From Amoebophrya sp. A120 (Eukaryota > Protista > Dinoflagellata): a DNA stretch of 64,000 nucleotides. A program made the translations under genes and the position numbers. Numbering within the stretch: position 1 is the stretch's first letter; each line of letters begins with the position of its first letter. This document shows, piece after piece, positions 140-55,824 of this stretch. The notes beneath the pieces were generated by a model. It made no database searches. It was given only the letters and a program-made list of their open reading frames with translations, and was not told where the DNA came from. The stretch lies in NCBI GenBank assembly GCA_905178155.1, contig CAJINV010000008.1, positions 1 to 64,000 of the forward strand, written 5' to 3'.

Positions 140-1329
140 CACCGTGACCAGGAAGTCGAAGCGCTTCGAGACCACGAGGCGCTGCATGAGCGAAATGTCC
201 TTCCGGCCCCGCAGGGCGCGTCGCTCTTTCACCAAGTTGTTGGCCGCGGGGTTCAGTGCATCGATCTTCTGCAGCCGCTCGTCGCGATATGACAGTGCAC
301 AACTCCCCCTCCCCCTCGTCGTTTGTATTGCATGGCGTGTAGGTGTAATACAAGCGCCAGCAAGAATGCAGGTTTTGCATGACGAATTTCCACAAGATTG
401 TAGTACTATTTGGGCTGCCACCAGAGCCTGAACCTGTCATGCAAACAGTGCCAAGAGGCAAAGGGTGAGTTTGGTCTTTTGCATGACAAGTGAGGGGGAG
501 GGGGAGTTGTGCACTGTCATATGCGAAGTTTCCGTGCCTTTTCCTTGATGGTTTTCGCAGCCCGCTTGGCGGCCATGGCACTCGCCATGGACATGCCCGC
601 TGAGTTGCTCGCCGTGGAGTCCAGGCGGGAGGGAGCTAAATTAGGGATAGTGCCAGAAGATTGAAAGTGCACTAGTGCGGATTTTGGTTTCGCGGGGGAA
701 GCGTCTTGACCTTGTCCGGCCGGGTTCGCAGTCGCCGTCGCGGTTGTGTTCGTCGCTGCAGGAGACGAAGGAGATGGATCAGTCGTATCAGCATCCGTTA
801 CAGCTGCGGACCTTCCATCACCATCAGAGAGGGCCGAAGCGCCTGATGACGTAGTGCCCTTTAATATACTCGGCTTTATTGGTGAATAATCACCTGCTGT
901 ACCACTAACAGTAGAATTCGCTTCCGCTTTGACCGATCCAGTAGCAGTACTGGGCTCCCCTCCAAGATTGGTCTTTGCTATTTCCCCAGACGGGGGAGAA
1001 GGCTCTGGTGGTGCTTTTCTTGGTACAACTATCGAATTAGAATTGGTCTTTACCGCAGGAGGGGATCCACTCGTCGCATCGGGAGCATTTGCAGACGGAG
1101 CCGGTCCTTTGTTATTGTTAGCACCGCCCTTTGGAGCAGGTATCCTCCCACTTTCAAACGACGCAAGTGGCGGCATGTTGGCCTTTTTGTTGTCAGGTGC
1201 AGCATTTCTTTGCTTGGAGCTGCCGCTACCATCGCCTTCCAAGAATTGCTTCGAGCTGCTATCGCCCGTTCTTGTCTGGTAAGCCTCGGGGGCTTTCTTG
1301 GATGTGGAATCGCCTGCGCTCTGCGTCAT
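1..1329 (-). CDS. 5' part of a probable ion-transport (voltage-gated channel-like) protein; runs off the window
   Basis: ORF 517-1329 (low-complexity N-terminus, ...KEKARKLR) joins in frame to DERLQKIDALNP...MQRLVVSKRFDFLVTV (287-140) after removing element 288-521 plus one repeat. LVVSKRFDFLVT resembles the pre-S1/S1 start of ion-transport domains; that resemblance is the only support for the product call. Confidence 0.5.
288..521. mobile_element. Introner family B (234 bp)
   Basis: Perfect 30-bp TIR tatgacagtgcacaactccccctccccctc; flanks cgcga/tgcga (4/5); removal restores frame; homologous to 51588-51807. Confidence 0.93.
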
Positions 1330-2763
1330 TTTCGGACAATATCACTGGCCTTGTGTTGCTGTTGAAGTAGGTACAACACTTGTCGGACAACTTCGACTAC
1401 CTCACTGCGGTCCGAGCGTCGACGCCATTCTGTGGTTGTGGCATCAAGAACGGCAGATAACCAACCCACATGGGCAAAATTATGCTAATGTACTTGTCGT
1501 CGCCGTGAACCACAACAACATGAATGGGCTAAACTACCTACTAAATAAAAGTTGCTCACGGATACCGATACGGAACGTAGACTAGGTAATAAAGTAGTCA
1601 CATGTTGTGGTAGAGCGAGAGGCAGATGGGGAATATGATATCGTATGGGGTCATTTGTAAATTCACATTCAGGAGGTAGGCCTGTAAAAAGGACGACGCA
1701 CGCAACCATGAGTAGAAAGAGTTTGATGGTTCTTGGAAAGTCTTCGCAATGTGTTCGAAAGTAGAACGAACGACGAGATGAGATGTCAGCTGCACGCTGG
1801 CTGAACGGACGTGCTGGTTTGTACGATGTCCTGGCGCGCAGGCACACTAGGCGATATAACGGGAACTTGTGTGCGAAGATGGACGACCGACGGCACACAT
1901 TTGATGCACCGAAGGCTTCTTTATTGAGAAGCAGTACGATCGCCGATGAGTTGTACGACAGTGTATAGCGTTTGTAGTTCGACGTCGAAAGTTAAGTAAT
2001 GCCAGCACACCAGTTCTTGTTGCAGTAGGTGGCAGCCGCAGCAGGAACGAACCGAAAACTCGATTTATCATTTTGGAGACTTGGTTGCACTTTCGTTCTT
2101 TGACAAAGTAAGCATCGCTACCGAGGGGAGCGTGGAAAATTATCATCCACGAGAACCGAAAAAGCAAAAAATCTTGCAAACATCTGAGATGCATCGAGCT
2201 GAGTGGCTGATGTATATCTACCTATGTTCCACAGACACATCATGACAGGATCGGATACTTCTTCTACTTATGCGAACAGATCTAATCTTCATCTGCATCG
2301 CAGCAGATAGTCCACTTAACCATAGACTCTTTTTGGTGTGGTTTGTCACTGCGCAGAAAACAGAATCTGCGAATGCTAAAAATGGACGCGTCTCTTGATG
2401 TGAAATACACGTCAAGATGAATTGTCCTAACAGCGCTGGAAATTAACACAAAAGGAATCAAGGCAACCTCGATATGGCACACTCTGGACCACGTAGGTTC
2501 GAGGCTATCCCTTTTCCTGTTCTGAAAAACGAAAAAAGCTCTGTCCACTAGTTGATATGCAAACAGGTGGCAGTAGAAAGTAGCGCGAAACGAGTTTCAA
2601 TAAACGAAGGCAGGCACCTCAAATGCAAACGTATAGACCACAACAAATGCGTTTAAAAAAGTATGTGAATGACATGGAGTAAGTACGCAAACTGCTGGGG
2701 GCTGTTAGTGCTATCGGTGTGGATCACCTAAGTCTACTTTAACTTTTTCATCAACTGGTGCTT

Positions 2764-5406
2764 CTACATCTTGCGCCGTTTTGCGTCTGGCGGCTGCAGC
2801 GAAGAAGCAGGTGTGACATTTTGCGAGGCAGCTTCTCTTGGAGACGAGGCGGATCCTGCCAGTTGTAGCGCAGGCATGACAGGAAAAGTCGCCCCGGCGT
2901 CCCCGCTGTTGCTCGTTTTCGGTGGCTATGCGATGCAAATATCACTCCGTCACTCCGGGTTGTTAGGATTCTCGTTGAAAAGAAACACTTGATCATGACA
3001 ATAAGAAAGCGGAAGCGCTCATGCAGTTGTCATAATTGGACGTTCAAGCACGGGATTATGGTTTGATCATGTTCATGTTGCATTTTTGAATTTTCAGCGA
3101 AAAAAACATCAAGAATGAAATAACGTCCGCATGATATTAAAGTTGATTCGCTTTCGAGAATGACGGAGGTAATATTGTTTGCGTTCGATAGAGGCATGCT
3201 GGGCGAGTGGTGGCTCCTGCGGCGGACATCGGGGGAGTGCAGCGACTCGGTGGCGTGCTGCCGCCGCATGTGCGGTGAGGATATGCCGCACATCTTCTCC
3301 GGCTGTAAAATTTCGTCCACCTGGGACTTGTTCAGAAATCCCTTCTCCACCACGACTTCGCCGACAGCCCGGTTTTCCTTCAGCGCCGTCTTCGCCACCA
3401 GGGAGGCGTTCTTGTAGCCGATGGTGGGCAGCAGGGACGTGACGATCCCGATGGAGTTGTGCACCAGCTCCCGGCAGCGGTCCTCGTTGGCGCCGATGCC
3501 GTCCACACACCGGAGGCGCAGCGTGTCCATGCCCTTGCTGAGCACCTGCATCATCATGAAGATGGAGTGTATGATCACGGGTTCGAACACGTTCAGCTCG
3601 AGCTGCCCGGCCTCGGACGCCATCACCACCGTGTTGTCCATGCCAATCACCTGGAACGAGCACATGCTCATCACCTCCGGGATCACCGGGTTCACCTTGC
3701 CCGGCATGATGCTGCTCCCGGGCGCCATGTCCGGGAGGTGGATTTCGTTGAAGCCGCACCGGGGCCCGGACGCGAGCAGCCGCAGGTCGTTGCAGATCTT
3801 GGAGATCTTGACCGCCACGCGGCGGAGGATCCCGCTGAAGAACAGCATGGCGCCCACGGAGCTGCTGGCCTCGATCAGGTCCGGGGCGAGCTGGATGGGG
3901 AGCCCGGTCACCCGCTTCAGCTCCTCGACGGCGGTCTCGCTGAATCGCGGGTCCGCGGCAATCTTCGTGCCGATCGCCGTGCCGCCCAGGTTGCAGAAGC
4001 AGAACCGGTCCACGCCCTTGGTGACCTCTTCCAAGTCGTACCCAATCGTCGTGGCGTAGCCGTTAAACTCCTGGCCCAGCGTCATCGGCACGGCGTCCTG
4101 CAGCTGGGTGCGGCCCATCTTCACGACGCTGCAAAATTCTTCGGCCTTGTTCAAAAAGGACTGCCGCAGCTGCTCCATGGACTTCACTAAATGCTTGTGC
4201 ATGTGGTGGATGGCAATCTTGGCGCTGGTTGGGTACGTGTCGTTGGTCGACTGGGCCTTGTTCACGTGGTCATTCGGGTGGCAGAACTGGTAGTCGCCCT
4301 TCTTCTTGCCCATGATTTCCAGGGCCCGGTTCGCAATCACCTCGTTGGCGTTCATGTTGGTGGACGTCCCGGCGCCGCCTTGCACCTATCCTGTGCAAAA
4401 GTATCGTACTCCTAGTCATTGCAGTCATGCATGACAAGTCTGGTTCGTTCCTTAGCTTATTCAGCATTACAAATTCCATTTTTCCTTCTGGAAAAATTTG
4501 TGATGCTATTTCTACTAGTACGATACTTTTGCAATGCATAGCACCATGTCTACCACGAAACTGTACCGCAGGTTCCGCATGATGTCCGCCTTCTCGGGCT
4601 CCTTCTCCTCGTACCGCTTATCCTGCAGAAAAGCACAACACCCAGCAATATTCAAAAATACTTATTTGCGATTTGCAGCTGTCTCAAGTGTGGTCACAAA
4701 GAATGGTCTCTTTTTGCCGGCTTTTCAAGAACGTGACGAATTTTATTTCAAGTCCTGGACTACTTGATGACTCCAGCTACAGGTCCGCATCTTTACACTC
4801 TCCATCTTTTATTTTAATTACAACAGTATGACCACAGAAATAAATTGCCTCGCTAGTGGCTCAGCATTGCAAGAAAAGGCTATCGGGACGGGAGAACAGC
4901 GAAACACAAATTCAATTTTTTCTGGTGTAGGAGTAGGTATGCTTTTCTCTAGGATAGTGGTCCGGGTCCTCGATGAGCTCGTCGCAGGCCTGCACGATCG
5001 CGACCATGATTTTTTTGTCAAGCCCACCGAGGCGATGGTTGGCCAGCGCACAGGACTTTTTCACCTGCGCAAATGCAGTGATAAACGAGGGGAACTGCCG
5101 CAGCAGCATACCGGTGATCTGGTAGTTATCCACCGCACGCAGGGTTTGCACGCCGTAGTAGGCGCCGACGGGCACTTCGCGCTCGCCGATCAGATCGCGC
5201 TCCAAGCGGGTCGGCCCCGTGATGGAGACCGGACACCCGCCGTGGCGCCCGTGACGCTGAAACGACAATCCTACACTCTCAGCCGCGGATCCGCCTGCCG
5301 ATACATTGCTGTGGCGGGCCGGGACGTTGTGGTCTACCGACAGGTGCTGGTGCGTTCGCGGCGGAGAGCCAGGCTTGGTCGGCTGGCCTGCGGGTGCGCT
5401 CGACAT
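2764..5406 (-). CDS. aspA: Aspartate ammonia-lyase (aspartase), 4 exons
   Basis: Motifs GEREVP..AYYGVQTLRA, VDMVQGGAGTSTNMNANEVIAN, HPNDHVNKAQSTND, KMGRTQLQDA, GSSIMPGKVNP. Exons ~5406-4957, ~4618-4545, 4385-~3191 and ~2925-2764. The last exon (...PPDAKRRKM*) is inferred from frame only. Confidence 0.92.
2927..3190. mobile_element. Decayed introner (264 bp) forming the last aspA intron
   Basis: Starts tatgcgatgcaaa, ends tttgcgttcgata; flanks gtggc/gaggc (4/5); residual catgacaa and ttgtcat motifs; removal gives in-frame SPSMPPKTSNS. Confidence 0.6.
4387..4540. mobile_element. Introner family C (154 bp)
   Basis: Ends tatcctgtgcaaaagtatcgtact ... agtacgatacttttgcaatgcata; perfect DR gcacc; removal gives VVDMVQGGAGTS. 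Can be excised as a GT-AG intron at 4544-4386. Confidence 0.95.
4619..4956. mobile_element. Older introner (338 bp, family E) with eroded TSD
   Basis: TIR tatcctgcagaaaagca / tgcttttctctaggata (15/17). Flanks ccgct/gtggt match only 2/5, but removing element+5 gives in-frame EDPDHYEEKEPEK. Confidence 0.75.
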
Positions 5407-6455: not shown

Positions 6456-9283
6456 TTAAAGCTCCTCGTCCGAGTCTACGCTCGCTTCTCCACTTTTTTC
6501 TTCGTAACTTTCTTCATCTTGCTTCTGCTGCTCCTCCTCGTCGTCGCTTTCCGCTTCAGAGTCGGTGCCGTCGCCGTTTTGGGCCTTCTTATACTGCTCG
6601 TTCGCACGTCGCAAGTCCTCCTCCTCTTCTGAGTCCCGATCTAGATCCGTTCGTCGCGCCACGTATGCATTGCAAAAGCATCGCACTAGTAGAAATCGCA
6701 TTACAAATTCGGCCCGCATGAGAAATAGAATTTGTCATGCTGTTTCACCTTGGAATAGAGAATTGTAATGCATGATTGCGATTACTACAAATACGATACA
6801 GTAGTTGCACAGGCTACCACAGTTTCCTCATAAATTTCGCGCATGTTGTAGTTGTACCGTTTCTGGTATCCTGTGCAAAAGTACCGCATTCGTACTATAT
6901 CGCATTGATGCATTACAAATTTCCTTCTCAAGCTAAATGCGCATTAGAAATTCCACTTCTCATGATGAGGAAATCTGTCATGCGATTTATACTACTACGA
7001 TACTTGTGCAGTGCATATCTGGTACCGCCTCTTCATCAGTTCGCGCACGCTACTATCAAATGTAAAAGTGTCTGGGTCTGGAAGATTCTGAGAAATGTCA
7101 TGCATGTTTTGCATGACCCAGGATGTCTGTAATGCACGACCGCGCATCACAGATTTTGCGCTGGCTTCCTGATGGCTACTCCGCATGACAAATGCCCTCC
7201 CCGCGTAGCACAAAGTAGACTCCTCGTCTTGCTGGTCATGCAATACAGATTTTTCTAGAGTCCAAGGTTAGCATCACAAGTTCCAATCTTCCAGACCCAG
7301 ACATTTTTACATTTGATAGCTCCCCAAGACCCCCTCGTCGAAAAAGGTCACATCGTGAAACACCATGCGTATGGATTGCAAAAATGTCTGGGTCTGGAAG
7401 GATGCGAACTTGTGATGCGTGTTGCGGATCATACAAAAATCTGTGTTGCGTGACTTTCAAAAGGTCCCCATTTCTGGCCATTCTGAGAGGGCATTTCTCA
7501 TGCAGAATAGGCATCACCAAGGGGCTCCAGAACCTGTGATGCCAGGCCCTGCATTCCAGACTTGGCGGAGCTTGGAAAAACTGCATGACAAGTCTCGGAA
7601 TCTTCCAGACCCAGACATTTTTGCAATGCATAATGCGACTACCGTCCTCCCTCGGTGGCAGCGGCGTGCAAACCGTCTCGTTCGTCGGCAGGCTAGCCTT
7701 CGGCCGCGTTTTGGAGAGGTCCGGGATGGTGTCCAGGTTCTCCGCCCAATGAAAATCATCCTGCCGACTCCACCTTGTCGATACAATTACAAGTGCCTTA
7801 TAGAGGTTTTCAACACGACTGGCACACGCACAGACACACACACGTGCGGCATCGAGAAAGGTCATGATGCATGATCAGCAATTTTGTCCTGCGTGAGGAC
7901 TTGGCCATTTAAGTACGGTTTACAGAAGGTTTCTTTGTGTTTGTAGTTTCTCATGTGAAGATAGAAGAGTACAACTTACCAAACGTTGACCGCCAGATTG
8001 CGGGTTCCCCCAGAATTGACCTGGTGAAACCAGCCGTTGGGAATGAAGAGAATGTCGCCCTTGTACATCGTCAGCCGTTGCTTCGGCACGTGAAAAAATT
8101 TGGGGTGCTTTTTCAGGTTCACCCGATCTTGGTTGATCCTGGAGTAGCCCCCCTTGATCGCAATTTCGCGGGCAAACTTGGGGTCGATCAGCGTGACGAG
8201 CTTGCTGCCCTCCTGGAGCATGAGAAAGTTGTCGGCGTCATCTTGGTGCAGCACGGAGCTGGTGCCTCCGCTGGAGAACCAGATGGTCATCGACTGATAC
8301 AGGTTTTCCTCGCAAGCCAGCATTCTGGGGATTTCCACATCGCTCTGCAACCTCTCCTCCGCAGATAACTTCTTTTTCGATGAACTAGATTTGGCGGCTC
8401 TGGTTCTTTTGGAAGATTTGAGGTCGAGCATCTTGCGGTTGTGCAGCACAAATTCGGGCGGCGCGCCGTCCTTCGCCTTTTTCCCCTTCGGGCCCTTCAC
8501 CGCGAACGCTTTCATCAGCCCCGCAGGACTTTGGCCGAACTCCGGGACCGCCTCGGTGCCGATGATGGCATACAGATCCTCCACGTCCTTGCGTTTGATG
8601 AAGTCCTTGAACAGCATCTGTGCTCGGGGCCCGCCCCGGACCTCCGATTTGGATCGTTCCGCATTCACAACAATTTTGCCGATCTTTTTGTCCTTTGCAA
8701 AGTACTGGTCGGTCCACTTCTCCAAGAAGGGGTTGCGGAAGTTCGCGTTCCGGAACAGCACCGGCTGGTGGTGTCGGGCGTACTTCTCGTAAAATTCTGC
8801 CCAGTCGATTTCGCCTGATACCACCGGCACTGTGTTGGTCGTCGCGGGAAAGTCCGCCATTGGCGCCCCGTCTAGTTCGTGGAATTTCTTTTTACCGCCC
8901 GAGGATTTAGTATCCTCCTCATCGTCCTCATTCTCCTCCTCTATTGCCTCCGGGATCTTCTTCGTGCTGCTCGGGCGATCGTTTGAGTTTGTGGCTTTCT
9001 TCGATTTTTCTGCGTCACTGGTGGCACTTGCTGCCTTTTTGCCACCGCTATCCTTTTGCTTGTTCTGTTTCTTTTTCGCCTTTTTTTCACTTTTGGCTTG
9101 CTTCGCACTCTTTTTTTTCGCACCACTTTTTTTGCCGACAACTTCCAGGGTGGGAAGTTGCTCCTGTGATGTGCACAGCTCGTGAAATGGACGCAACAGA
9201 GACACGATCACGAACGAAGTAGCTACAGCACGAGTCACGAAGCCACCAGTCGCACGAGGCAAGTAGCTTGCCATGCCCGACAT
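6456..9283 (-). CDS. JmjC/cupin-8 domain 2-oxoglutarate oxygenase, probable secretory-pathway protein ending DEEL
   Basis: ORF 7976-9283 has a hydrophobic N-terminus, PVLFRN, SVLHQDDADN and GDILFIPNGWFHQV (HxD...H triad). A GT-AG intron (7979-7774) and four introners follow; the spliced tail reads NVWWSRQDDF...GSRMVFHDVTFFDEGVLGSVRELMKRRYQKRYNYNMREIYEETVARRTDLD...SDEEL*. Confidence 0.88.
6664..6816. mobile_element. Introner family C, reverse orientation, diverged (153 bp)
   Basis: Starts tatgcattgcaaaagcatcgcactag, ends tgcacaggcta (ATA end mutated to CTA); flanks ccacg/ccaca; removal restores frame. Confidence 0.85.
6867..7017. mobile_element. Introner family C (151 bp)
   Basis: tatcctgtgcaaaagtac ... 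gatacttgtgcagtgcata; perfect DR tctgg. Confidence 0.92.
7054..7318. mobile_element. Introner family A (265 bp)
   Basis: TIR tatcaaatgtaaaagtgtctgggtctggaagatt / aatcttccagacccagacatttttacatttgata; flanks gctac/gctcc. Confidence 0.94.
7370..7632. mobile_element. Introner family A variant with C-like tips (263 bp)
   Basis: tatggattgcaaaaatgtctgggtctggaag ... cttccagacccagacatttttgcaatgcata; perfect DR atgcg. Confidence 0.94.
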
Positions 9284-15600: not shown

Positions 15601-18600
15601 TGCGAAACTGCTCTATCAGCTTTTCCTCCATGGAGCACGGCTTAATCTTATCTTGTCCCTGCAAGCTCGTCACTAGAACAAGTGCGTTTGGATTTGCCCG
15701 CTCGGCCGTTGCGATGAGGCCAGCGGTTGCGTTTGACGCCGCGGAAGTTAATGTTTGGCTGGTGCCGACTTCTAGGAGTGGTGGGACTATACCTTGCTCG
15801 ATATCACCCTCCACCATGACGTCAGGGTCCTGATCGGGCTCTGAGTCATCTATTTTTCCGTTTGCCTGCTTCGAAGATGACGAGGTACCCGCGTCATTTG
15901 TTTTGCAGCTGCTGATAGTTGCGTTACTTTCGTTCTCGTTGGTATTTGCAAGGTCGTTCTCGACGACGTTCTTCGCCTTGGTTGCAGCCTTGTCAGCACC
16001 GTCAGGACCTTTGCTTGTTCCATCATCGAGCTTCTTTTGGACGTTATGATCCTTGTCATGCTCGGCGGAACTGTCTCCGCCGTTTGCCGTTTGTCCTTGA
16101 CCACCGCCTCCACCGTGGACCAGCGCTAGTTTCTCGGCCTCGGTGTTGAAGCAACGTCCTATTTTCCACAACGAGCAGGCCACAGCCTGTCTTGTCCGCA
16201 ACTCTTTGGATTCGCATAGCGAGAAGAAAAAGCTCTGGAATTCGGCGTAGCGATCAGGTTTTAGGGGCAAAATGGCTTCCAGGACGGCGGAAAAGGTGAA
16301 CGCGAGGTGATAACGCACTTCGTTATGCTGTGCGTTGTTCGCGCCATTGGCCGGCCCGTGGCCTGCTGCAGAAGAGGTTGATGGACCCGTGGTACTTAGT
16401 GTTTCGAAATAATACCCGATCAGTTCGTCGGCCTCGTCAACCGCTTCCTTGCCACCAAACTTCTGTAGCGCGAACTGGTAAAAGAAGAAGTGTTAGTGTT
16501 TTTGAAAAATCGCGTCGCTTTGTTTCAAGTAGTCTTTACTACGAACAACTCCTCATTCACGAGCGCTCCTGTCCTGTTTGCGCAGCGAAGGCCTCCACAG
16601 GGATTACGCTTCGCAGCAACGCATGACTATGAAATAGTAGAATTTGATTTTGATGCACAGTTAAATGTAAACATAGTATTTTTACCAAGATGTAGCCCAT
16701 GTTCTGACACAGCGCGAGGTGCACCCAGCGATTCTGGTCGTTGTAGAGCCGCTTGGCGATGCGGATACACTCCGGGTATTTCTTGGAGGTTTCGATCATG
16801 AGGGGCAGCTGCTCGCTTCCACACCGGCGCACGGTGTAGTTCACGTCTTCGCAGAGACGTTCGAACGTTTCAAACAGGCGGCTGCCACAGAATTTCTCGC
16901 CGGCGCAGTGGGCCACGTCCTTCATGTTGAGCAGCACGGCCTTGCGCACCGCCGCCTTCTGATCCTCCCCGAGGGCGATCAACTGAATGGCACAGAACTC
17001 CACGCACAGCTCCTTCGTCAGAGTCGGCGCCAGGCCATTGAGGAGGAAGGCGGACATGGCCCGGGCCTCCTCGTCGCTGTCGTTGGAGAGGGAAAGGACG
17101 GTCCGCAGCGCGTAATCGGTCCGCTCCTGCAAGCGCAGGTGGGAACTCAGGACGAGGAGGGCCTCCGCGGCGTCCTGTCGGGTTTCCTTGTAGACGGGGT
17201 CGAGCAGCAGAGTTGGAAACACGGGCACCAGGGTGGCTAGTACGTAGGCGTATCCGACCTCGGGGTTGCTCTGAATCAGGAACCCGGCCAGATCGCCGAA
17301 CTGCAACAAAATCTGCTTCCGCACTTCCGCCTCGGCATCCCAGGCGAGCTTGGACAGGTAGGGCTGGATCAGGTGCTGGTACGCGGTTTCGCAGGACACC
17401 ATCTGGTAGCACAACGAGGTATATCAACTGCAAAAATGTCTGGGTCTGGAAGAATGCCAGACTTGTCATGCAGGTTTTCCATGACCCATGAGGTCTGGTA
17501 TGTGGGACGTAGCATGACAGATTCTGCGAGAGTTCTATCATGCCTATCCTGCATGAGAGTCTGCGTCTCGATTAGGGCTAAAGTGGACAGCTTTTGGTAA
17601 TCACGCAACACAGATTTTTACATGATTCCAATTTAGCATGACAAGTTGCTTTGATGTTCCAGACCCAGTCATATTTGCATTTGATAAGGTGATTTCCTTC
17701 CCGAACACGACCCTCTGGACCGCGAGCTGACTATGGAAGCGTCAGGATTGAAATCGACAAAGTTGAAATATTTTCTCATGCACAAACTGCAAGGCATGAG
17801 GTGCCTCTCTTGCACGGATGGCAAGTGAGGCCGACTGTCAGCCTGTTTGGGGTGTGCGGTAGAGCTGCCAAAGCAGCACTACAAAAGACGCCTTCTGTCC
17901 CTAAACAGCATGACAAACTGGATTGAGGCGGTGCCGAAATTTGTCATGCGCCGCCTGGGAATTGGGCTTCCAACTGGTATCGATTTTGTGCATGACAAAC
18001 TATTTCAACTTTGACGATTTCAATCCTGACGCTCCCATACTGACTGTTCGCAAAGTACCGGGCGCGTTCCAGCATCGCGGTCAGCATCTGCTCCTTCGTC
18101 TGGGGCTGGTCCTTCAGCTCGCCGCTGGTGGCCCCCCCAAGAGCCGAAGACGACCCCGAGTTGTTCGTCGATCCATGTTGATTTGTCGTGTTAGATGCAC
18201 CTCCTGCTCCATGATGATCAGAGGGCGAGGAACTAGTACCCTCGCCGTAAGAACCAGACAAGTTGCCTCCACCGCCACTGGGTGGTCCAGCACCTCCCCC
18301 TCCGAGGGACGACGTCTGGTGCAGCCCACTGCCGTTATTTCTACTGCTGCCGCTGCCGCCACTGATAGCCGAGAGGAAATTCGACGCGCCAGACGAGGTC
18401 GTCGCGGACGTCGTGCTTGACGAGAACAACCCGCTGAGTGGCGCGGGGAGTTGGAAGGAAGAGCTCGAAGAACTGCTAGTTAATGTGGTCCCACCCGCAT
18501 TGTACGAAGAGGATCTGTTGTGCGCGGAAGAGCTAGAGCCGCTTGACGGGGCGCTGCCGCCCGCGGTCCCGTTTCTGTTTTTCGTTCCCTTGTTGCTCGA

Positions 18601-20128: not shown

Positions 20129-20999
20129 TCATCTGCGTTGGCGCTTCGCCTCATGGCGGCCCGTGTCACCGTACTTCTGAAGATCCCGGGTGTCGTAGTC
20201 AAAAGTCTCGAATTTTCTGCCTTTGTACTCGTCTTTGTCTCTGCCGCCTCGGGTATCAAATGCAGATATGTCTGAGTCATCTGGAAGATTGCAAGATTTC
20301 TCATGCACATCTTGCATGATGCATGACGTCCGTGATGCATGTTGCCCTAGCATCACAGGTTTTGTGAGGGGTTCCTGATGCCTATACCGCATGAGAAATA
20401 CCTATATATTTATAATACCCCTCCGCGTACTAGCAAGAACTGCGCTCCTCTGGCTCCTCACGCAATACAGATTTTTGTTTTTCTTTTTGCAGCATCCAAA
20501 GGCAGCATTACAAGTTCCAACCTTCCAGACCCAGACATATTTGCATTTCATATGGGGCCCTGCTAGCTCCATCTTTAGGATGGCAGTAGTCGCGGTCATC
20601 GTAGGTCAGACGGCTTTCAGGTTTTGAAGCTGGTGGCGTGCGGTATTGGAACCGAGGCACCCACAGGGGAATAGCACAAAACCGATCGCCGCGGCGGTTC
20701 TTGGTCAAGTTGAACCGGACCCAGTCACCCTCCTTCAACCCGGTCGGTCGCAAGACCCGATCGTGAATGAAGACGTCTTCTAGGTTTTCGGTCTTGGGGC
20801 CTTTCGTGACTCGGAGGAAGCCGTTGTTGGACCAGTTCAGGACGCGGTTCACCTGACCTTCGAACACGCCCGGGGTTTTCGCGGAAGAAGTCCCGTCCTG
20901 GATCCCTTTCGGATCTCCTAACAACAGCCAGTCCGCCGTCTCCAGCCAGGAGGGACGCTCCGTGCTCGCCGCTCGCCAATACCCGTCGTTTTTTTCCAT
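20129..20999 (-). CDS. Cold-shock/OB-fold domain coding segment (own gene, or last exons of the upstream multi-domain gene)
   Basis: FEGQV...NNGFLRV...EDVFIHDRVL..TGLKEGDWVRFNL matches the CSD RNP1/RNP2-like pattern; continues in frame across element 20254-20552 to ...AKRQRR*. Confidence 0.7.
20254..20552. mobile_element. Introner family A (299 bp)
   Basis: tatcaaatgcagatatgtctgag ... ccagacccagacatatttgcatttcata; flanks tcggg/tgggg; removal restores frame. Confidence 0.9.
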
Positions 21000-21199: not shown

Positions 21200-23470
21200 T
21201 TAGGTCTTTTTTTGAAGAATCAAATTATATGAGTACGGGGTCTTCAGTCCCTGCTTCGACTTGTCCGGTCGTTCGATCGGGATGCCTGCCGCTGGCCTCT
21301 TCATATTGACGTGGTCACGCGAGCTTCTTTCGGCGCCGAACCCCCGCTCGCGTTCTCGTTCCCGTTCCGCCCGACCGCCACCTCGTTCCCGTTCGTATTG
21401 CTCGATGGCTCTTGCTCCGAGATCGTCCGTGATGCGCACGCCCCGACCCTCTGCTATGAGGTCGTAGTTGTTTCTTTCCGTCTATGCACCCGCAAACATG
21501 TTAGGAAATGTTGAACAACTGAGAACGTCGGCAAACAGACGTCGGTGGCCTGGAGCCACAGCCATGCGCGCCGTATTCTTTTTTGTGCGCATTGCGCTTG
21601 CGCATGAATTGAAGGCAAGTCGCGTGTTTGCATGACGAAAAAGTAGACCCATTGCGTCAGAACCAGAGCAAGACCTCCAGTCAGGCCGAATAGGTAATAA
21701 ATATGTCAGCCGGAGGACGAGAAAAGCATCTCGATCTTAACAGTCCCCAGAACGTTATTCTTCCACACCCGAACACATTTGCATGTGATACATTCAGAGG
21801 AACCTCGCCCTTCTCCCGGCAACGAATCCAGAAAGGGGTGCTAATACCATTGCGCATCAGGCTTGCGTCTTCGTCCACACAGAAGGCCAGTTCGTCTGCT
21901 ACCCGAATGCCAGTAGTTCCGACGTCATCCTTCGACACAAAAGGGCCTCTATTGACGCAAAACTACTCCGAGTCAACTTACTTTTTCTGTACGCATGAAG
22001 ATCAACTCTATGGTCTTCTGTATCCGCTTTCGCAAAGGAAGGTGATGCAAGCCACCATGCAAAACCAGTGAAAGAATTTGAATTGACTCGAAGTAGTTGT
22101 ATATGTTTTCTGTGACATAATCCTCGTTAGTCATCGCGACACATTTCTTGGAAAACACGAAGCACGCCTGCGTCTTGCTTTTCTTGTAGACGTGTCCGAC
22201 AAAGTCGCCGAAACGCGGAATCCTGCCGCGCCCTTCCCATTTTTCCTGGAGTGAGTTGTAGTTGTGTCATTGAGTGTTAGTGTAGCGCAGTCAGCTTTGG
22301 TGAAGGGGCCCAAATTCGTATGGCCAAGCATTTTCATTCAACGTTTCTTGTTGCAAGAACCCACGGGCCAAGTGTCTGGAAACGCTGCGGCTGGAGCTGC
22401 CGCTGCTCGAACTCGATAAGAAAAAGTACTTAAAAAGTCGAAATTGCAGTCGTCGTCCACCGAAGCACAAGCTTGCTGTGGTTCCAGCTGTGAAAAGAGA
22501 CGCTATTTCCCCCCCCCCCGGTATTGGCTAATAACACACAACTTGAACTTTCTCTTTATTCTGACCCCGACGTCGTCCGATGAGCACTCTTGCGTTGCCC
22601 AACCTGCAGCAGGCGTCAGCTGCACTGGTACTAACACAGTGGCAAGCCAAGCTTGCTCAATACCAACTTGAAAAACAGAAAAACAAAACCCTCCATGGCT
22701 AAGCAGCCTGAACAAGCGCAAACGTGCTTTTCGTGCCTTTTGTAGGAGCGGCGCTTTTTGCTGTTGCATTGATACCCAAGCAACGGCATCATGATCCGCA
22801 CCAGCAATACCGGCATCTGGACGAGCAAGCAGCGACGTTACCAGGGGCAAGAACGTAAGTTGTACTGGCAGAATGCGTAAAGCCAAGCTGATCTGAAATG
22901 CATATGCATCATGAAAAGTACCGCTTCTCGGGTGCTCCAGCCGATTCTCCAAATGGGCTTTTTCGAGTCCGCCAGTTGCCAGCCCTCGCCATTGTGAAAA
23001 ATATTGACCGCCAGAATGTCCCCCGCCTTCAATTCGTACTTCGCCAGGGCTGTGTTTTCTACGAAGATCATGCGCTCCTTGGAAAAGGCATCCTGGGTTT
23101 CATCGAAGGCCTCCAAGTAGTTCTTTTTGCGCGGCGCTCGGTCGCGGGCTCCGCCGCGGCGGGCCCTTCCCGTCTCGTCCTCTTCGTCCGGGTCCTCTGC
23201 TGTCGGAGCAATCGCCTGATGGACTACCGTATGGTCCCCGTCTGGTGTTAAATGGTCTGACACGCGCCCAACGAGCACCGTCTCCGGGTCGCAGATCTTT
23301 GCTCTATCGTAGTCCGGCGCGTTTTCTTTTTCCTCGGCGAGCCGCAGCCGCTGTTTGCGGTTTTCCGATTGCAGCTTATAGTAGGCCGATTCCGCTGCTG
23401 GATGCCGATCAGTACCGCCAAGCTGTGGCTCTATCATCTCGAAAAACGTAATAGCTCGGCCCATTTTCAT
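21200..23470 (-). CDS. Exons of an uncharacterised protein with degenerate OB/CSD-like units
   Basis: ORFs 22838-23470 (IFVENTALAKYELKAGDILAVNIFHNGEG...KPIW), 21681-21938 (GIRVADELAFCV...STPFW) and 21200-21439 (RE-rich); exon joins not resolved. Confidence 0.5.
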
Positions 23471-32458: not shown

Positions 32459-35400
32459 CTAGTATCCCTCACCGCCGCCCCGATTGTTGTTGTTGTGATT
32501 CCGCCCACCTCCTCGTCCTCCGTAGTTGTTTCTGTTGTTGTTATTGCCGCTTCGGTTATTGTTGTTTCTGTTCCTTCCACCGCCCCCGCCTCCGCCACTT
32601 CCACCACCCTTGCCCTTGCCCTTTGCGCCACCGCGATTGTTATGTCCACCGCCATTATTGCCCCAGTTGTTATGATTGTTGTTCCCGCCACCACCTGCAT
32701 AGCCCTATGCATTGAAAATATGTCTGGAGGTTCTGGAATGTTCGTGCATGGTTTGTTCCGAATGTTGATGAACGAACTGCAAAAATACCCAGCTGACTAT
32801 AGCAATGAGCGCCTGCGTTATGCTTATGCGTATAATCAATGCCACATGTTGTAGTTGACACCCTGCGTTTTTGCAGAAAAAAATGAATACGATGGTGCCC
32901 TTATTTCTTACGTTATCTGTGGACGATCGCAAACTCTCCAGTCTTGTTGTTTTAGACAAGCATGTGCATGACAAAAGGCTTCGCAACCTTCCAGGAAGGC
33001 TCAGACACATTTGCAAATGTGATAAGCCTCCGTGATTTCCGCCACCTCCGCCCCAATTGTTGTTACGGTAATTATTTCCGTTATTTCCCTTTCCGCCTCC
33101 AGTGCCACCCCAATTCCAAGAATTGCTGTACTGCTGTTGATAATTGTTGTTTCCCTTGCCGCCTCCCCCTCCTCCCGGTCCCCAGGAGGAGTTGTTGTTG
33201 CCATGATACTGCTGGTGCATCTGCTGCTGTTGCATGTTGTAGCCCGCCGCTTGCTGGTGACCTTGACTGCCATACTGGTGTCCGCCCATCTGCTGACTCA
33301 TCCAGTTCTGCATCATGTTTTGATTGCTAGTATCACCAGTGCTGCCCATCATCGCACCAGCAGGTCCGCCTCCCATCATGTCGAGTTCGTGCGAAGCCTT
33401 TCTCTGCTGCTGACTAAACGGATTGCCCGGCTGCTGAGCACTAGTACCAGGAGCTGTGGTTGTGCCAGGGCCCGGTGCGCCAGCGCCGAAAAGCTGGGAG
33501 CCAATCGTAGTTGGCTTGTTGTTCATCGGTTCGCCCCAATGGTCCTTGTTCTTCACCTTGTCCTTGTTCCCGCGCATCAAGGAGTCGTTGCTGTTTTTCC
33601 GATCCGCCGGCTGTGCTTGCTTCGGAAGTTGCTGAAGTCCCGGAGTCGGGCCTGGCTGGACCCTGAGTTGTATTTTTTCACAATATTCATTCATGTCATT
33701 CTGTTTTCTCATTCAGCTTCAATATTTCCATGGATGTAGTTAAATCAGTCCTTGTCCTTGATGTGATCGTCTTCATCTTGAATAAACATCGATGCTACTT
33801 GGATGATCATTATCCTCATATTAAGGCAAGCTTGCAACTCCTAGAACATGCAGCGTCACTGAGCAATCAAAAGAACGGATCGGAAGTTTCGCTTGAAAAT
33901 TTATAGATACGCTTTGACTGTCGACGGATTTCCCGATTTATTCTCCACCGCGGAGTTTACTTCATCAATACTGCCCGTCTGTGCGGCTGCCGGAGCTGGT
34001 GGTGCCGTGCGTCCTGTGGGGGTGGTCGCCTCTACTTTTTTGTCTCCAGCACCAGTTGTCGCGGCGACATCCTCGCTCCCCAGTAGGGGCCCGCCGGGCT
34101 TCTTGGATCCTCCACCCGGAACTGCTTTAGCCTTACTGACCGCTTGGGCGACCGGTAGCTGCTCCTGTACTTTATTATGCTCGTCCGGCGACGATGCCGT
34201 GCTGTTCGTCCTTCCCAGCATCGGAGCGGCTGCGGAAACCTTTGCTGTGTGCTTCGGCACGTGCTTCGCGTGCGCAGGCGGCGAAGCCTTCGGGTGTTCC
34301 ACTACTGCAGCTGTCGACGTCGTGCAGGTCGTGATTTTGCCATCCTTATTCAAGTCCGGAGTCGTCAACGGTGGAATATTTTTGTCTACTGGTTGTTTTC
34401 CAACGGAAGATTTCGATTTATCCTCCTCCGGAAGCTTGGTGAGGGTAGAAGAGGTGGCTGGAAGGTTCGAGACAAGTTGTCCACCACCTTTCGCTTGAAT
34501 TTGATTACCCGACTCCGAGTCTGCGCCTGGAAATTTCGCTTTCTCTTTGTTCTCCAACACATCCACAGGTGCCGCAGAAGTACTACCCACTTTAATATTT
34601 TCAGCACCGGTAGAAGAAGTTGTACCAGACTGTAGCTTCTTCTCCGTCAGAGCTGTATTAAGCTTGATGTCCTGCTTCTCGTTTGCATCATCTGTTTTCG
34701 ATGTCACGGCGGGTGAAGCGGCTGCCGTCGCGCCGGCTTTCGCTGCTCTGCTGCTTGGGAGGGGAGCCAAACCTCCTCCAAACGCCATTTTCATGGGCGG
34801 GACCACGTACGCAGCTCGTTGTACAGGATTTACCTGCGGTGTCTGGATGTTCGCCCAGTGCTGTTCTTCGTCCTCGAGTTTCGTAGCATCCGACTTTTCG
34901 GCCATATTACAGGGCTTCGCAAGACTGGAAAGACAAAGGCTACCGCTCTTCGAAGCAGCGGCCGCAGCCATGTTGGTCGTGCCTGCTGGTTTCTTACTCG
35001 CGCTCTTCATCAGCGTTTTGGTCCTCGTTGATGTTCCGAGTAGTTGCTTCGCCTGCTCGCCGTCCTGGGTGGAGGTGGTAGTCGTGCTGTCAAGGGTAAC
35101 TGTAGTAGTTTTCGCTTTTTCATCGTCCTTGTCTGCGGAAGGTTTGTCCTCGATGGTATTCTCGTTACTTCCGGGTTGCTCCGTATGGGTTACGGGCTTC
35201 TTCGGAGGTGGGGGCGTACGAACAGACGCAAAGGCCCCTTGATCATTCTGCTTGTTCGTTGGGGCCCCGCCCGTGCTCGGCTTCGCGCCGAAGACTGCTT
35301 GCTCCTTTGAAGATTCCGCTTTGGCATTTTTCTCGTTGCTCCTGGCGGCAGGGGCAGTGCTCGTTGCACCAGCGCTGGAAATAACCTGAGGGACAGGAAG

Positions 35401-51500: not shown

Positions 51501-53150
51501 AGCTCTTCGCCGACCTTGTCCCGCTCATCAACGACTTCCAACCAGTCGGTGAGAAAAACCTCGTAGGACTCATAGACCAGTGCAAAATATAACAATGCAC
51601 AACTCCCCCTCCCCCTCATTTGTATAGCATGAACGGCAATACAAGCATCAGCAAGGATGCTGGTCTTGCATGACAAATTTGCACTGGAGTATAGTCTGTG
51701 CTATTTGGGCTACCAGAACTTGTCATGCAAACAATGCCAAGAGGCAAAGGGTGATTTGGATACTTTGCATGACAAATGAGGAGGAGGGGGAGTTGTGCAC
51801 TGTCATACAAAATCGTGGGCCGTCACAATGGTCTCGATGGCCTCCTGGTAAATCGCCCGGGCCTTATCAAACCAGGCGAGCCGAATGAAATGGTCCGCCA
51901 GACAAATCCAGAGCCTACCCACCTGATAATATTGGAAAGATTTTTACGTATGGACACTCATCTTTTCATCTGCATCGAAAAATTTTCGCACTAGGGTCTG
52001 ATGTATTTGGGAAAAGGTGTGGTAGGAATAGGTTTTCACCACGCGACAAAGAATGTGCAAAAAAGAAGAACAGATAAAAAGACCCCGCAAGGCCATTCAT
52101 GTACCTCGTCGGTGAATTTCCCGATTCCCTGGCGGATGATGGGTTCAATTTTTATCGACCGGATTTCTCGGGGGTGTTTTGAGATGAGCTCGCAGAGGTC
52201 GAGCCAGAGCTGGTGGCGGGACTTGCCGTTGATGCTGACAAAGTCCTCGTCGTTCAGAATCTCGACCATTTTCACGGCTGCTTCGTCGTAGATTTCCTGT
52301 CGAAGGAGGTAGGCGATAAAGGTCTCCACGTGGCTGGGCTCCAACATCAAGTAGCGGCGGAAGAGCGTGAGACAGGTCTTCTGGGGGATGACCGCGTGTT
52401 TGTACTTGGTCCCGCCCACCCAGGGAATACCAATGTTCCATACCCGGTGATGCTGCTGGATCGGGAGGGTGCGAAGCGCCCCGTCGATGGCACGGCGGGT
52501 TTGCGTCACGCGCCGCTGCTGGATTAGAAACTCGAGGTAGTCGAGCCAGATGCGCGGCATCTTGTGCATGAAGATCAAACACCGGTCGTAGATCGCGTTC
52601 ACCTCCGCGTAGGCCTCGTCGGAAATCGGGTCGAAATTCTTGTTCCCATAGTGTGCCTGCTCGATCTTTCGTCGTTCGTCCAGCGACTTCCTTCGCTCTA
52701 GCAAATATCTGCGCCACAGCTTGTACGACATCGGCAGTGTCTGATAATTAATGTGTTGGACTCATTTCATACATGTCGTGAATTGAACAAAACTTCTGCA
52801 GTGTCCTCGTCCTGACCACATCGACGCCAATCAGGTGATGATGTGTAGTAAAATCATTCACTATGTCTTAACTTTGGATCACCAGGAACAACATCAGCAT
52901 CAGGGATGAAAAGTATAAAGATCTAAAAGTAGATAAACATGTAAACTTTCATTCTCACCTTCAGCGCCCGTTCGTACATCAAGTATCGCAGTGCGGGATC
53001 GGTCTTCTTGATCGTGTCGATGTACGTGATCCACACCCTAGGCCGGTAGGGATCCAGCGTCAACTCCTCTTCCAGTGTGTCATTGAGCACCGAACTGAGG
53101 TCGTGCAACACACTGTTGGACGCGGAGGAGCCACCGTTCTGCATCGACAT
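48524..53150 (-). CDS. SYF1: Pre-mRNA splicing factor SYF1/XAB2 (HAT repeats), ~7 exons
   Basis: YERALK|TLPMSYKLW, MHKMPRIWLDY, LPIQQHHRVW, LLNSVLLRQNPHVVAEWLKRV, DDLASIWCEWIEMELRH, DLKIATPQVIINFA, KKLERSRDLFE, FEMRHGNAETFKEMRRIQRSV; GT-AG introns plus one introner. Confidence 0.95.
51588..51807. mobile_element. Introner family B (220 bp) in SYF1
   Basis: tataacaatgcacaactccccctcc ... ggagggggagttgtgcactgtcata; perfect DR caaaa; removal gives VTAHDFALVYESY. Confidence 0.94.
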
Positions 53151-54374
53151 TTTGCAAGGAAGAATGTTGCTCCTGCTCCGTGAGTCGAGTGCGAGTCGTC
53201 GCAAAAATAAGGTCGTACTAGAAGACACTGCTTTGCCAACTTCTAAGAATGTGACTACGAGTAACACTAGAACTTAGTCACCTACTTGGCCGCAGAAAGT
53301 GAAAGTCGTCCGGCAACAACGTAAAGATATTTACATGGTTGCTTCGCCTTTGCTAGTAGTAGAAGTACGCTAGCCACAGGACATCAACCAAGAGATATTG
53401 CCCAAATGTCGTGGTGGAAAGATGTAGATGTCATAAACCTAATGCTGATGGTCGCCGTCGCGTAGAAATATAACTGTCGGTGTCGCCTGGAATGCAATTA
53501 CAGATCATGAAATCAAAGGAGAGAAAACACGGATCACATATCTATGGAAAAATAAAATTAAGCACGCTTAGTACAGGATCGCTTCCGGTGCATTCGTGAG
53601 TCTCAAAAAAAAAAATGAACTGATCTACATCCTCATATGTGTTGAACCAGTTGCAATTGTTGTAGAGCCATTTTTATCGACTATTGATGGGGACGAGCAA
53701 TAGTCATCCGCGAAGGATCTTTAGCAGGAAACAACGATCGCAAGTTTATTGCTTCTGCGCAGTGAATATTGAATGATCGCGAAGGAGACTAATAGAGGAA
53801 AAATGCGCCATCGTTTGCAGCTACAGAACTCCAGTATTTAACTCGCTGAGATTGCGACAATGACTGGCTCACGCACAAGTAGGTACCAAAGCACGATGTC
53901 ATCAGCGGTGAATCATCGTGTGCACTGCGTGCAATTCCGAGTTAGTGGTTCAAGACCAAGAGTGCATCAAGTATGCAATCCTTTTCGTACAAACAAAACA
54001 TGTATTTCAGGCATTGATATTAAGTAGCTTCTGCGTTCTCATGCGCGATCCATGTGAAAAACATTTTCATTTACATTTTGTACATGAGCTGAGAGACCAC
54101 GGGCAGCCTTTTCGCAATTTTCTTTTCATTTCATAAAAACTTAGAATAAATCTGCAAAGAGGAGGAGCAGCAAGCGTCCGCGTTGCGTTCATCGTCATTT
54201 ATTCGACCAGCAGTTGCTTCGTAGTATTAAGAATTATATCACGAGAAAAAAGCACCTCTCCTCGAGAATCACGTTGTCCAAGAGGGTTCGATAGCATCTT
54301 TCCCTTTGTCGTCGAGCTTTTTTTTATCTCGTAGTGCTATTTATTGCATCTTCTGGCGGTCCTCTCCTCGGCGA

Positions 54375-55824
54375 CTACAGGATGATCTCATCCTGAAACG
54401 CGGCTTCAGAAACACCAGGCCGCAACAGTGACGGCGCGGGATTTTCTGCTTTTCCTTGCTTGTAGCTACTGTCAATATTGCCGGCCAACATTTTTTCGCT
54501 CTGCGCTCCTCGGCTCGGATTTGGTTCAGTTCCCACAGGCTGCTCCACCTCAGCACCATTGAGGACAGGTGGTGTTTTGCGGCAGCAGCTGCGCATCGCG
54601 TTGTCCGAGTCGTAGGGACAACACTTCTCTTTCGTCTTGGGGGACCCGGGCCAATCTTCGCAATACGGGGTGGCTGGCGCCTTCGCGAAGAGATCCGGGG
54701 AAATGTCGCCGATGTAGTGCGTGTCGCCAAAACCGCCGACGTAGTGGATTTTCTCGACGGATGTCGTCCAAAACGTAAAGTTGTGAGATGTCATGTGCTC
54801 CCACTGCCGCGCGTCGGGGTGCTTGGCGAAGAAACAGTCGGACACGCGCTGGTACTCGCGTCGCTCCGCTGGCGAGTCAGCGCCAAACCGCGCCCCAGGT
54901 TTTGCTCGCCCGAGAAAAGTGACGCTGTGCAGCGTCATTGGGTCGATGGCTGTGTCGTTGGCGTTGGGCGCTCGCACATGGAACGACACGTGGTTCTTGT
55001 AGTGCAGCACCGCGTCCAAGGTGGCCTCCAGTGGGCTCGAAAAGATCCATATGTCCTGCTGGTTGGCGCAATCTGCCGCGATTTGCTCCACCTGCCCGAA
55101 CGGAAAATCTTGGTACTGCGGGTCCCGGTAGTAGCGCACCATCATGGTTGCGAAACCCTGCTTATCAAATGTAAAAATGTCTGGGTCTGGACGAATGCAA
55201 CTTGTGATGCTATTTTTGGAATCCAAAGAAAATCTGTATTGCATGAGCAACAAGAGGCGTCCAGTTTTTGCTCCGCGGAGAGGGGATTTCTCATGCGGGA
55301 TAGGCATCAAGATGCCCGCAAAAAATCTGTGATGCTACGGCATGCATCACAGACATCATTGGTCATGGTCATGGAAAATATGCATGACAAATCTAGAAAT
55401 CTTCCAGACCCAGACACTTTTACATTTGATACTGCTGCCCGAGTAGCTGCTTCGCCAGCGACGCGGCCTGGTACTCCGTCGGGATAGTCTGAATATCTGT
55501 AGGGGAGCTGGTGCTCCTACTGTCACGTCTCCCTGCTTCAGGATCTTCATCGCTGTTACGAGGCAAGAGCAGATCCTTGTGGTCTGACTGGGAGCGACGT
55601 CGAAGAAGCTCAACATCAAACTTCTGATGATCTTCGAGACCTGCCACATAATCCGTGTAGCTTTCCTTGGAGCTGCTGCTTCTTCTTGCAACCTCAGTTT
55701 TCGGATTTGCCGTTCTTTCCGCAGCAAAACACATTCGTGAAAACCAGCGGCCGTCGTGGGCGAATAGGAGAAAGACCAGCTGGATCTTGCTTCGTCTTCG
55801 AAGGACAGAGCGATTTCTCATCAT
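54375..55824 (-). CDS. CREG-like / pyridoxamine-phosphate-oxidase-like split-barrel protein, secreted-type
   Basis: FPFG, CFFAKHPDARQW..SHNFTFW...IHYVGGFG; ORFs 55420-55824 and 54375-55310 join as LLGQQGFAT across element 55163-55431. Confidence 0.82.
55163..55431. mobile_element. Introner family A (269 bp)
   Basis: 29-bp TIR (28/29) tatcaaatgtaaaaatgtctgggtctgga; perfect DR ctgct. Confidence 0.95.

What the first reader, a model, noticed from the sequence alone, without database searches (positions are those of the whole stretch)
288..55436. Frame-preserving excision is mostly incompatible with GT-AG
Sliding the junction through the 5-bp repeat gave a GT-AG pair only for the 4387 element among those I tested (ATG|GTGC...ATAG|GTG). 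At 17732, 29564, 51588 and 55163 the in-register options are pairs such as GT-TA, TC-AG, GT-CA, TA-AG, GT-AT or GT-TT. Ordinary GT-AG introns occur in the same genes (JmjC, PP4R1-like, SYF1). This suggests either two removal routes or a spliceosome whose site choice is guided by structure. The 4/5 TSD mismatches are natural markers for locating the true junction.
Basis: partly seen in the sequence, partly recalled or inferred. Interest (0 to 1): 0.82.

Follow-up and report, generated by a model that had tools for sequence, protein, structure and literature searches.

The report
Hairpin-measured splicing of transposon introns
In the marine parasite Amoebophrya, short transposon-like inserts are missing from transcript-type sequences without the usual GT-AG signals, and the junctions that can be placed all fit one position, one base before and four bases after the insert's matching ends, so pairing of those ends likely acts as the ruler for splicing.

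Summary
The window is Amoebophrya sp. A120. The inserts are the published TAT…ATA introner elements (PMC7789003), whose non-canonical borders that paper left unplaced. In detail: 1 of 23 elements here allows scar-free GT-AG, which is chance level (3.9% each). Contigs of two probable RNA runs show exact removal of element plus one repeat at 9 of 11 elements laid. A public protein model shows the same at 7 more. Decayed repeats place the junction: all 12 informative junctions fit 1 nt before TAT and 4 nt after ATA; only three exclude 0/5. Canonical GT-AG (+3 nt) or GC-AG options are unused at 3 of 3 sites checked. Two inverted neighbours are also joined across their better-pairing outer ends, skipping a 45-nt exon. 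One route, not two, explains the elements, and the GT-AG at 4387 needs no separate route. Whether the catalyst is a relaxed spliceosome (0.45) or a separate enzyme (0.35) is untested. No DNA control was laid, and 17422, 17732, 29564, 32706, 51588, 55163 and 62075 have no junction data.

The parts
284..522 (-). intron at 1/4 register; element 288-521, repeat 4/5; ends AT-GC
   Evidence: joint 283>523 in X3, at least 1 nt before TAT
2923..3191 (-). intron; element 2927-3190, repeat 4/5; ends CT-CA; aspartate ammonia-lyase gene
   Evidence: joint 2921>3191 in X1 and X3, 0-1 nt before TAT; P0001
4383..4541 (-). intron; element 4387-4540, perfect repeat; CT-TG at 1/4, GT-AG at 4/1, not distinguishable
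   Evidence: joint 4381>4541 in X1 and X3
4615..4957 (-). intron; element 4619-4956, repeat 2/5; ends CT-CG; the one junction with no sliding room
   Evidence: joint 4614>4958 in X1 and X3; only 1/4 gives the Gln of P0001
6660..6817 (-). intron; element 6664-6816, 5' end decayed to TAG; JmjC/cupin gene
   Evidence: joint 6658>6817 in X3
6818..6862 (-). 45-nt exon, skipped in frame when the outer ends 7017 and 6664 are joined
   Evidence: joint 6659>7019 in X1; duplex energies
6863..7018 (-). intron; element 6867-7017, perfect repeat
   Evidence: joint 6861>7018 in X3
7050..7319 (-). intron; element 7054-7318, repeat 4/5
   Evidence: joint 7048>7319 in X1 and X3
7366..7633 (-). intron; element 7370-7632, perfect repeat
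   Evidence: joint 7364>7633 in X1 and X3
7774..7979 (-). canonical GT-AG intron in the same gene
   Evidence: joint 15270>15430 in X1 and X3
17418..17687 (-). predicted intron; element 17422-17686, repeat 4/5
   Evidence: sequence only; no joint
17728..18040 (-). predicted intron; element 17732-18039; GT-AG (+3 nt) option available
   Evidence: no joint; homologs favour the scar-free length 97 to 6, 47 ties, of 150
20250..20553 (-). intron; element 20254-20552, repeat 4/5
   Evidence: P0121 allows 0-1 nt before TAT
21479..21791 (-). intron; element 21483-21790, repeat 3/5; GT-AG (+3 nt) option unused
   Evidence: P0121, 0-1 nt
21946..22120 (-). intron; decayed element 21950-22119, repeat 1/5, no significant end duplex
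   Evidence: P0121, 0-1 nt; fold
23428..23832 (-). intron; element 23432-23831, repeat 2/5; GC-AG option at 4/1 unused
   Evidence: P0121, at most 3 nt before TAT
26140..26418 (-). intron; element 26144-26417, repeat 4/5; GT-AG (+3 nt) option unused
   Evidence: P0121, 279 nt removed
26664..26848 (-). intron; element 26668-26847, repeat 1/5, followed by a 9-nt exon and a canonical intron (26499-26654)
   Evidence: P0121, 0-1 nt
27075..27391 (-). intron; decayed element 27079-27390, repeat 1/5, no significant end duplex
   Evidence: P0121, 0-1 nt; fold
29560..29717 (-). predicted intron; element 29564-29716 in a BolA gene; GT-AG (+3 nt) option available
   Evidence: sequence; BolA match upstream; junction untested
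32702..33025 (-). predicted intron; element 32706-33024, repeat 4/5
   Evidence: sequence only
51584..51808 (-). predicted intron; element 51588-51807 in SYF1
   Evidence: sequence; Pfam HAT_Syf1_M on both sides
55159..55432 (-). predicted intron; element 55163-55431, upstream of a CREG beta-barrel domain
   Evidence: sequence; Pfam
62071..62303 (-). predicted intron; element 62075-62302, repeat 3/5
   Evidence: sequence only

Best explanation
These TAT…ATA elements of Amoebophrya A120 are removed from transcript-type sequences together with exactly one 5-nt repeat and without GT-AG, at junctions that all fit 1 nt before TAT and 4 nt after ATA, likely because their paired ends serve as a ruler for a spliceosome that likely no longer needs G+1 or the final AG. 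Steps: (1) a MITE-like element inserts and duplicates 5 nt (duplication shown; transposition inferred). (2) In pre-mRNA the two ends pair (predicted). (3) The cut sites are counted from the TAT/ATA tips, so the intron reads N-UAU…AUA-NNNN and any fresh insertion restores the original mRNA (fit shown at 12 informative junctions; generality inferred, about 0.8). (4) Catalysis is by the host U2-type spliceosome, which would still read U+2/A+3 as in its canonical GTA donors (inferred, untested). The confidence below is for the whole chain.
For: Removal: 9 of 11 elements in 150-20140 show a joint of exactly element+5 nt in X1 and/or X3. The 1/4 model reproduces public protein P0001 letter for letter, 623 aa. 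P0121 has 11 introns: 4 GT-AG and 7 TAT…ATA elements, all element+5; three of the seven were found from the protein's junctions, not by a repeat search. Register: 4619 has no sliding room and is 1/4 in both runs; 288 and the composite joint exclude 0; 2927 and five annotated sites exclude 2 or more. Chance that all 12 include 1 under a uniform register is 2.4e-5 (1.4e-4 allowing any common register); for the 6 contig joints alone 0.009 (0.05). Canonical options are unused at 21483, 26144 and 23432; an AG 1 nt past ATA is unused at 2927. Pairing: the outer ends 7017+6664 pair better (-26.6 kcal/mol) than either own pair (-18.7, -14.6) and are joined in X1 at a compatible register across non-repeated flanks; in two other neighbour pairs the own ends win and only own joints were seen. 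Seven of 9 degenerate or imperfect elements keep an end duplex at z -3 to -4.3; 0 of 6 canonical introns do. Spliceosome link: 7 of 7 canonical donors start GTA and 6 have a pyrimidine at +4, like N-TAT. In Table S4 of PMC7789003 all 9 predominant A120 motifs have T at +2 and all 9 A25 motifs start TT. Spliceosomal proteins are nearly complete while U1 snRNA was not detected. GT-AG-compatible repeats are mildly enriched, 13 of 96 against 6.7.
Against: No call touches the catalyst. Terminal bases look free: G at +1 in 8 of 23 (P 0.20), AG at the end in 2 of 23, 49 different end pairs among 96 copies. The tunicate paper says splicing depends on a conserved first/last base pair. A stem over the donor would need opening (own knowledge). 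Only three junctions exclude register 0/5; the annotated sites resolve amino acids only and allow 0 or 1. 21950 and 27079 lack a significant end duplex (z -1.1, +1.0) yet fit the geometry. The whole-region fold favours cross-pairing of 7054 with 7370, while only their own joints were seen. PMC7789003 calls the sites variable relative to the hairpin, and 8 of its 9 A120 motifs also have A at -2, which a 1/1 register or aligner bias would give too. X1 and X3 are one study, assembled contigs, RNA by guess; no DNA run was laid; independence from the annotation cannot be assumed.
Confidence: 0.45

Rival explanations
1. Same 1/4 ruler, but a separate non-spliceosomal machine (structure-reading endonuclease plus ligase, as proposed for euglenid nonconventional introns) removes the elements; the spliceosome handles only GT-AG introns.
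For: Free terminal bases; canonical options ignored; joining follows the best-pairing ends. Euglena precedent of fixed spacers from a terminal stem, with authors favouring non-spliceosomal factors and citing circular excised introns.
Against: U+2/A+3 shared with canonical donors, in both strains despite different repeats; near-canonical classes lead Table S4; mild excess of GT-AG-compatible repeats; no candidate enzyme was looked for, as no genome is held.
Confidence: 0.35
2. Two or more routes with a variable register: elements with usable GT-AG (such as 4387, or G|TAT…ATA|G with one extra codon) go the canonical way, and the rest are cut at varying positions within the repeat.
For: 4387 is compatible with GT-AG; PMC7789003 reports IR/DR organisation in 15% of canonical A120 introns and variable positions; 13 of 96 against 6.7; 17732 and 29564 lack transcript data.
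Against: Canonical options unused at 3 of 3 testable sites; 12 of 12 informative junctions share one register; 1 of 23 is chance level.
Confidence: 0.12
3. The joints are not RNA splicing: reverse-transcriptase template switching across hairpins, or elements absent or excised at DNA level in the sequenced cells.
For: Hairpin plus direct repeat is the classic substrate for template switching (own knowledge); contigs only; no DNA control laid.
Against: 4619 has zero sliding homology yet is joined identically in both runs on the main contig; reading frames need removal; canonical introns are skipped in the same runs; runs X6 and X7 hold 0.89-0.90 of the words of 3200-9000, above the 0.69 that lie outside introns, while X1-X4 hold 0.58-0.60; PMC7789003 validated non-canonical introns with RNA-seq.
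Confidence: 0.08

Closest known systems
Amoebophrya A120 introner elements (Farhat et al. 2021, PMC7789003)
   Same: Same organism, TAT-started inverted repeats with an A run, 3-5 nt direct repeats, non-canonical borders, mixed with canonical introns in one gene. These are those elements.
   Different: The paper leaves the border position unknown and calls it variable relative to the hairpin; here one 1/4 register fits all informative junctions, and cross-pairing of neighbours skips an exon.
Euglenid nonconventional introns (PMC12501133; review PMC11282704)
   Same: No GT-AG, paired ends, fixed spacers between stem and junction, proposed MITE origin, coexistence with canonical introns.
   Different: Spacers 3 and 5-6 nt around CDG/CH'G and a purine at exon +1 in Euglena; here 1 and 4 nt around TAT/ATA and a purine in only 13 of 23. 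Unrelated lineage; circular products not tested here.
Fritillaria (tunicate) non-canonical introns (PMC13326754)
   Same: Transposon-derived introns without GT-AG; the precedent for a spliceosome adapted to them (U2AF paralogs, snRNA m6A).
   Different: There the ends follow preferred dinucleotides and about half fit the first/last base-pair geometry; here the terminal bases appear free.
Canonical-ended TIR introners of Micromonas and Aureococcus (as described in PMC7789003)
   Same: TIR elements with direct repeats that create introns.
   Different: Those described for Aureococcus carry canonical splice motifs; these do not need them.

Membership tests
Amoebophrya A120 introner elements | found in A120 | tested here: met
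   P0001 and P0121, 100% identity, named A120 by the source
Amoebophrya A120 introner elements | inverted repeat starting TAT, about 7 variable nt, then an A run | tested here: met
   TAT at 22 of 23 5' ends and 23 of 23 3' ends; A is the commonest base at 11-14; most were found by searching for TAT/ATA
Amoebophrya A120 introner elements | 3-5 nt direct repeat overlapping the border; non-canonical splice sites | tested here: met
Amoebophrya A120 introner elements | repeated families | tested here: met
MITE / TIR DNA transposon | terminal inverted repeats and constant target duplication | tested here: met
   86 of 96 complete copies have a perfect 5-nt repeat
MITE / TIR DNA transposon | cognate autonomous transposase | not testable with these tools
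   no genome held; PMC7789003 found none in A120
U2-type spliceosomal intron | GT/GC-AG ends | tested here: not met
   0 of 23 at the 1/4 register; 1 of 23 GT-AG at any scar-free register
U2-type spliceosomal intron | U+2, A+3 of the donor | tested here: met
   23 of 23 at the 1/4 register; follows from the repeat consensus
U2-type spliceosomal intron | branch point, lariat, snRNP dependence | not testable with these tools
   no raw reads of this strain mapped; no Rfam hit in the window
U12-type intron | AT-AC ends and U11/U12 machinery | tested here: not met
   no AT-AC at any scar-free register in 20 elements; minor snRNAs reported absent
Euglenid nonconventional intron | paired ends at a fixed distance from the junctions | tested here: met
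   two decayed elements lack a significant end duplex
Euglenid nonconventional intron | N3-CDG … CH'G-N5-6 | purine code | tested here: not met
   N1-TAT … ATA-N4; purine at exon +1 in 13 of 23
Euglenid nonconventional intron | excised as full-length circles | not testable with these tools
   needs raw RNA reads or bench work

The most novel reading that the evidence does not exclude
Amoebophrya runs a second, non-spliceosomal mRNA splicing machine that reads no terminal dinucleotide, measures 1 and 4 nt from a paired TAT/ATA tip, makes any insertion of its 5-bp-duplicating transposons harmless, and yields alternative exons when neighbouring elements pair crosswise; it would be convergent with Euglena in an unrelated lineage.
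Probability: 0.3. Interest if true: 0.9.

Novelty: new variant of a known kind. Interest (0 to 1): 0.62.

Why it matters
The border position and mechanism were left open for a class that makes up a large share of A120 introns (65% non-canonical, 68% of those introner elements). A fixed 1/4 register turns that into a precise rule. It explains why insertion is harmless at any site, lets gene models be corrected at perfect repeats, predicts the exact ends of the excised RNA for lariat or circle tests, and predicts exon skipping from the orientation of neighbouring elements. Either catalyst would be unusual: a spliceosome indifferent to both terminal dinucleotides, or a second splicing enzyme.

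Tried and rejected
No whole genome is held, so U1/U5/U6 variants and transposases could not be examined; Rfam finds 0 families in the window. Raw-read runs X10 and X11 gave 16 and 3 partial matches and no joints; X2, X4-X9 and X12 were never laid, and no reads were laid beyond 20140. BolA test at 29564 failed: no homologs returned, and the downstream exon had no PDB or Pfam hit. SYF1 profile positions across 51588 were inconclusive. Homologs of the ammonia-lyase do not discriminate registers at 4619, which lies in a variable loop. The representative search did not return the A120 HEAT protein; homologs show only the ancestral length at 17732, not what the cell does. A loose repeat scan at score 9 or more is at noise level (60 hits against 35-54 in shuffles), so weak candidates were dropped unless a joint, a protein model, a family-type end or a 3/5 or better repeat backed them; 62075, 32706 and the other predicted introns rest on sequence alone. 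Strand calls for the 96 outside copies were right in 18 of 22 window controls, so strand-free counts are given too. A branch point at an A of ATA was considered; the seven canonical introns show no visible branch consensus to compare with, so it is not claimed. A G+1 or AG preference was not significant in the window. Two joints inside elements (7406>7599, 17457>17534; one contig each, short sides) were set aside as probable matches from other copies. Two look-ups of earlier findings returned nothing.
Full report
What the window is. An exon at 3192-4382 is 100% identical to a protein labelled Amoebophrya sp. A120, and so is one at 23834-24997. All host genes examined lie on the minus strand. 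The inserts match the introner elements of PMC7789003: inverted repeats starting TAT, direct repeats of 3-5 nt, non-canonical borders. Of that paper I read the outline, sections 10, 11, 12, 16, 25 and 36, search passages, and part 3 of 5 of the supplement plus passages of part 2. Its figures are not held, so Fig. 3 and Figs S19-S23, which plot repeat positions against splice sites, may show more than their legends say.

The observation. I list 23 elements. Write k for the number of bases before TAT that leave with the intron; scar-free removal then takes 5-k bases after ATA. That is what geometry gives: a random repeat allows it in 3.9% of cases. 96 were complete distinct elements, 86 with a perfect 5-nt repeat; 7 allow GT-AG on the called strand and 13 on either strand, against 6.7 expected from flanking 5-mers (P 0.0125). 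So most elements cannot use GT-AG, with at most a mild excess that can.

What transcripts show. I laid 4 of the 12 listed runs on 150-20140. X10 and X11 do not map. X1 and X3, contigs guessed to be RNA and from one study, gave 15 joints: 3 canonical introns, 9 single elements, 1 composite, and 2 inside elements. Every element joint removes exactly element+5 nt. 17422 and 17732 gave no joint; depth beside them is near zero. No reads were laid beyond 20140 and no DNA run was laid.

The register. 4619, with a repeat decayed to 2/5, has no sliding room: k=1, ends CT-CG, in both runs. 288 needs k of at least 1; 2927 at most 1; 6664 at most 4; 7054 at most 3; the composite 1 or 2. Splicing all three ammonia-lyase elements at 1/4 reproduces P0001 exactly. 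Protein model P0121 spans 28563-20132 with 11 introns, 4 canonical and 7 elements, all element+5. 20254, 21483, 21950, 26668 and 27079 allow k of 0 or 1; 23432 at most 3; 26144 is silent. Three of these (21950, 26668, 27079) surfaced from the protein's junctions and still had TAT and ATA at the expected distances. All 12 informative junctions include k=1; the chance under a uniform register is 1.4e-4 after allowing any common value, and 0.05 for the six contig joints alone. Only three junctions exclude k=0. The annotation was built from transcript alignments that allow non-canonical sites, and I do not count it as independent of the laid runs.

Canonical options. GT-AG with three extra bases is unused at 21483 and 26144, and GC-AG at 23432. 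At 17732 the extra residue would fall in a conserved motif: 97 of 150 homologs score better without it, 6 with it, 47 tie; this shows the ancestral length only. 29564, 51588 and 55163 remain untested. One route therefore covers all tested elements, including 4387.

Structure. Elements 6664 and 6867 are one family in opposite orientation. Their outer ends pair better (-26.6 kcal/mol) than either own pair (-18.7, -14.6), and X1 joins the outer ends, dropping a 45-nt exon in frame, while X3 keeps it. For 7054/7370 and 4387/4619 the own ends win and only own joints appear. Against this, the whole-region fold prefers cross-pairing of 7054 with 7370; that skip would shift the frame. Seven of 9 imperfect elements keep a significant end duplex and 0 of 6 canonical introns have one, but 21950 and 27079 do not. 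Pairing is thus the likely guide, with the TAT and A-run motifs possibly read as sequence too.

Catalyst (inferred). At 1/4 the intron starts N-T-A-T. All seven canonical donors here start GTA. Table S4 lists T at +2 in all nine predominant A120 motifs and TT in all nine A25 motifs, whose repeats start TTA. The spliceosome is nearly complete but U1 snRNA was not detected, whereas a strain with canonical introns has U1 (PMC12005148, passages). This favours a relaxed spliceosome (0.45). The terminal bases, however, look free, unlike the tunicate case (PMC13326754, abstract and section 30) and like Euglena, where fixed spacers from a stem were shown genetically and non-spliceosomal factors are proposed (PMC12501133, abstract, sections 8 and 12). 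A separate enzyme gets 0.35.

Novelty. The elements are known. I found no statement of a fixed register in five searches (other hits seen as listings only) or in passages of PMC12130899, PMC12005148, PMC11282704 and PMC12621601. Subscription journals and theses are outside the library.

Verdict. Observation confirmed; interpretation partly supported; known elements with an apparently unreported splice-site rule. Interest 0.62.

Noticed in passing
window 26655-26663: A 9-nt exon sits between an element and a canonical intron in protein model P0121.
   Followed up: yes
window 6818-6862: In-frame skipping of a 45-nt exon in X1 but not X3, by cross-joining two inverted elements; the skipped donor has TAG in place of TAT.
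   Followed up: partly
window 7774-7979, 10561-10807, 11083-11317, 21007-21236, 22246-22921, 25003-25219, 26499-26654: Canonical donors share only GTA plus mostly a pyrimidine; 3' ends are mostly A/C-rich with no pyrimidine tract.
   Followed up: partly
window 60989-62026: About 1 kb GC-rich insert (69%) with 63-nt inverted ends that do not start TAT and with inner palindromes.
   Followed up: no
window 59848-60966: Longer TAT…ATA candidate (1119 nt, repeat 2/5) with a GC-rich core next to the insert above.
   Followed up: no
window 7268-7318: Raw reads of run X10 match only this repeat end, with other flanks, so that sample carries unspliced copies of the family at other sites.
   Followed up: no
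window 49468-53273: The gene for splicing factor SYF1 itself carries an element at 51588.
   Followed up: partly
window 20556-21005: P0121 ends in a Rho RNA-binding/cold-shock-like domain (Pfam 3.1e-06).
   Followed up: no
L072, L056: Two outside copies with near-intact ends but repeats matching 0/5 and 2/5; they may be cross-paired neighbours or old insertions.
   Followed up: no
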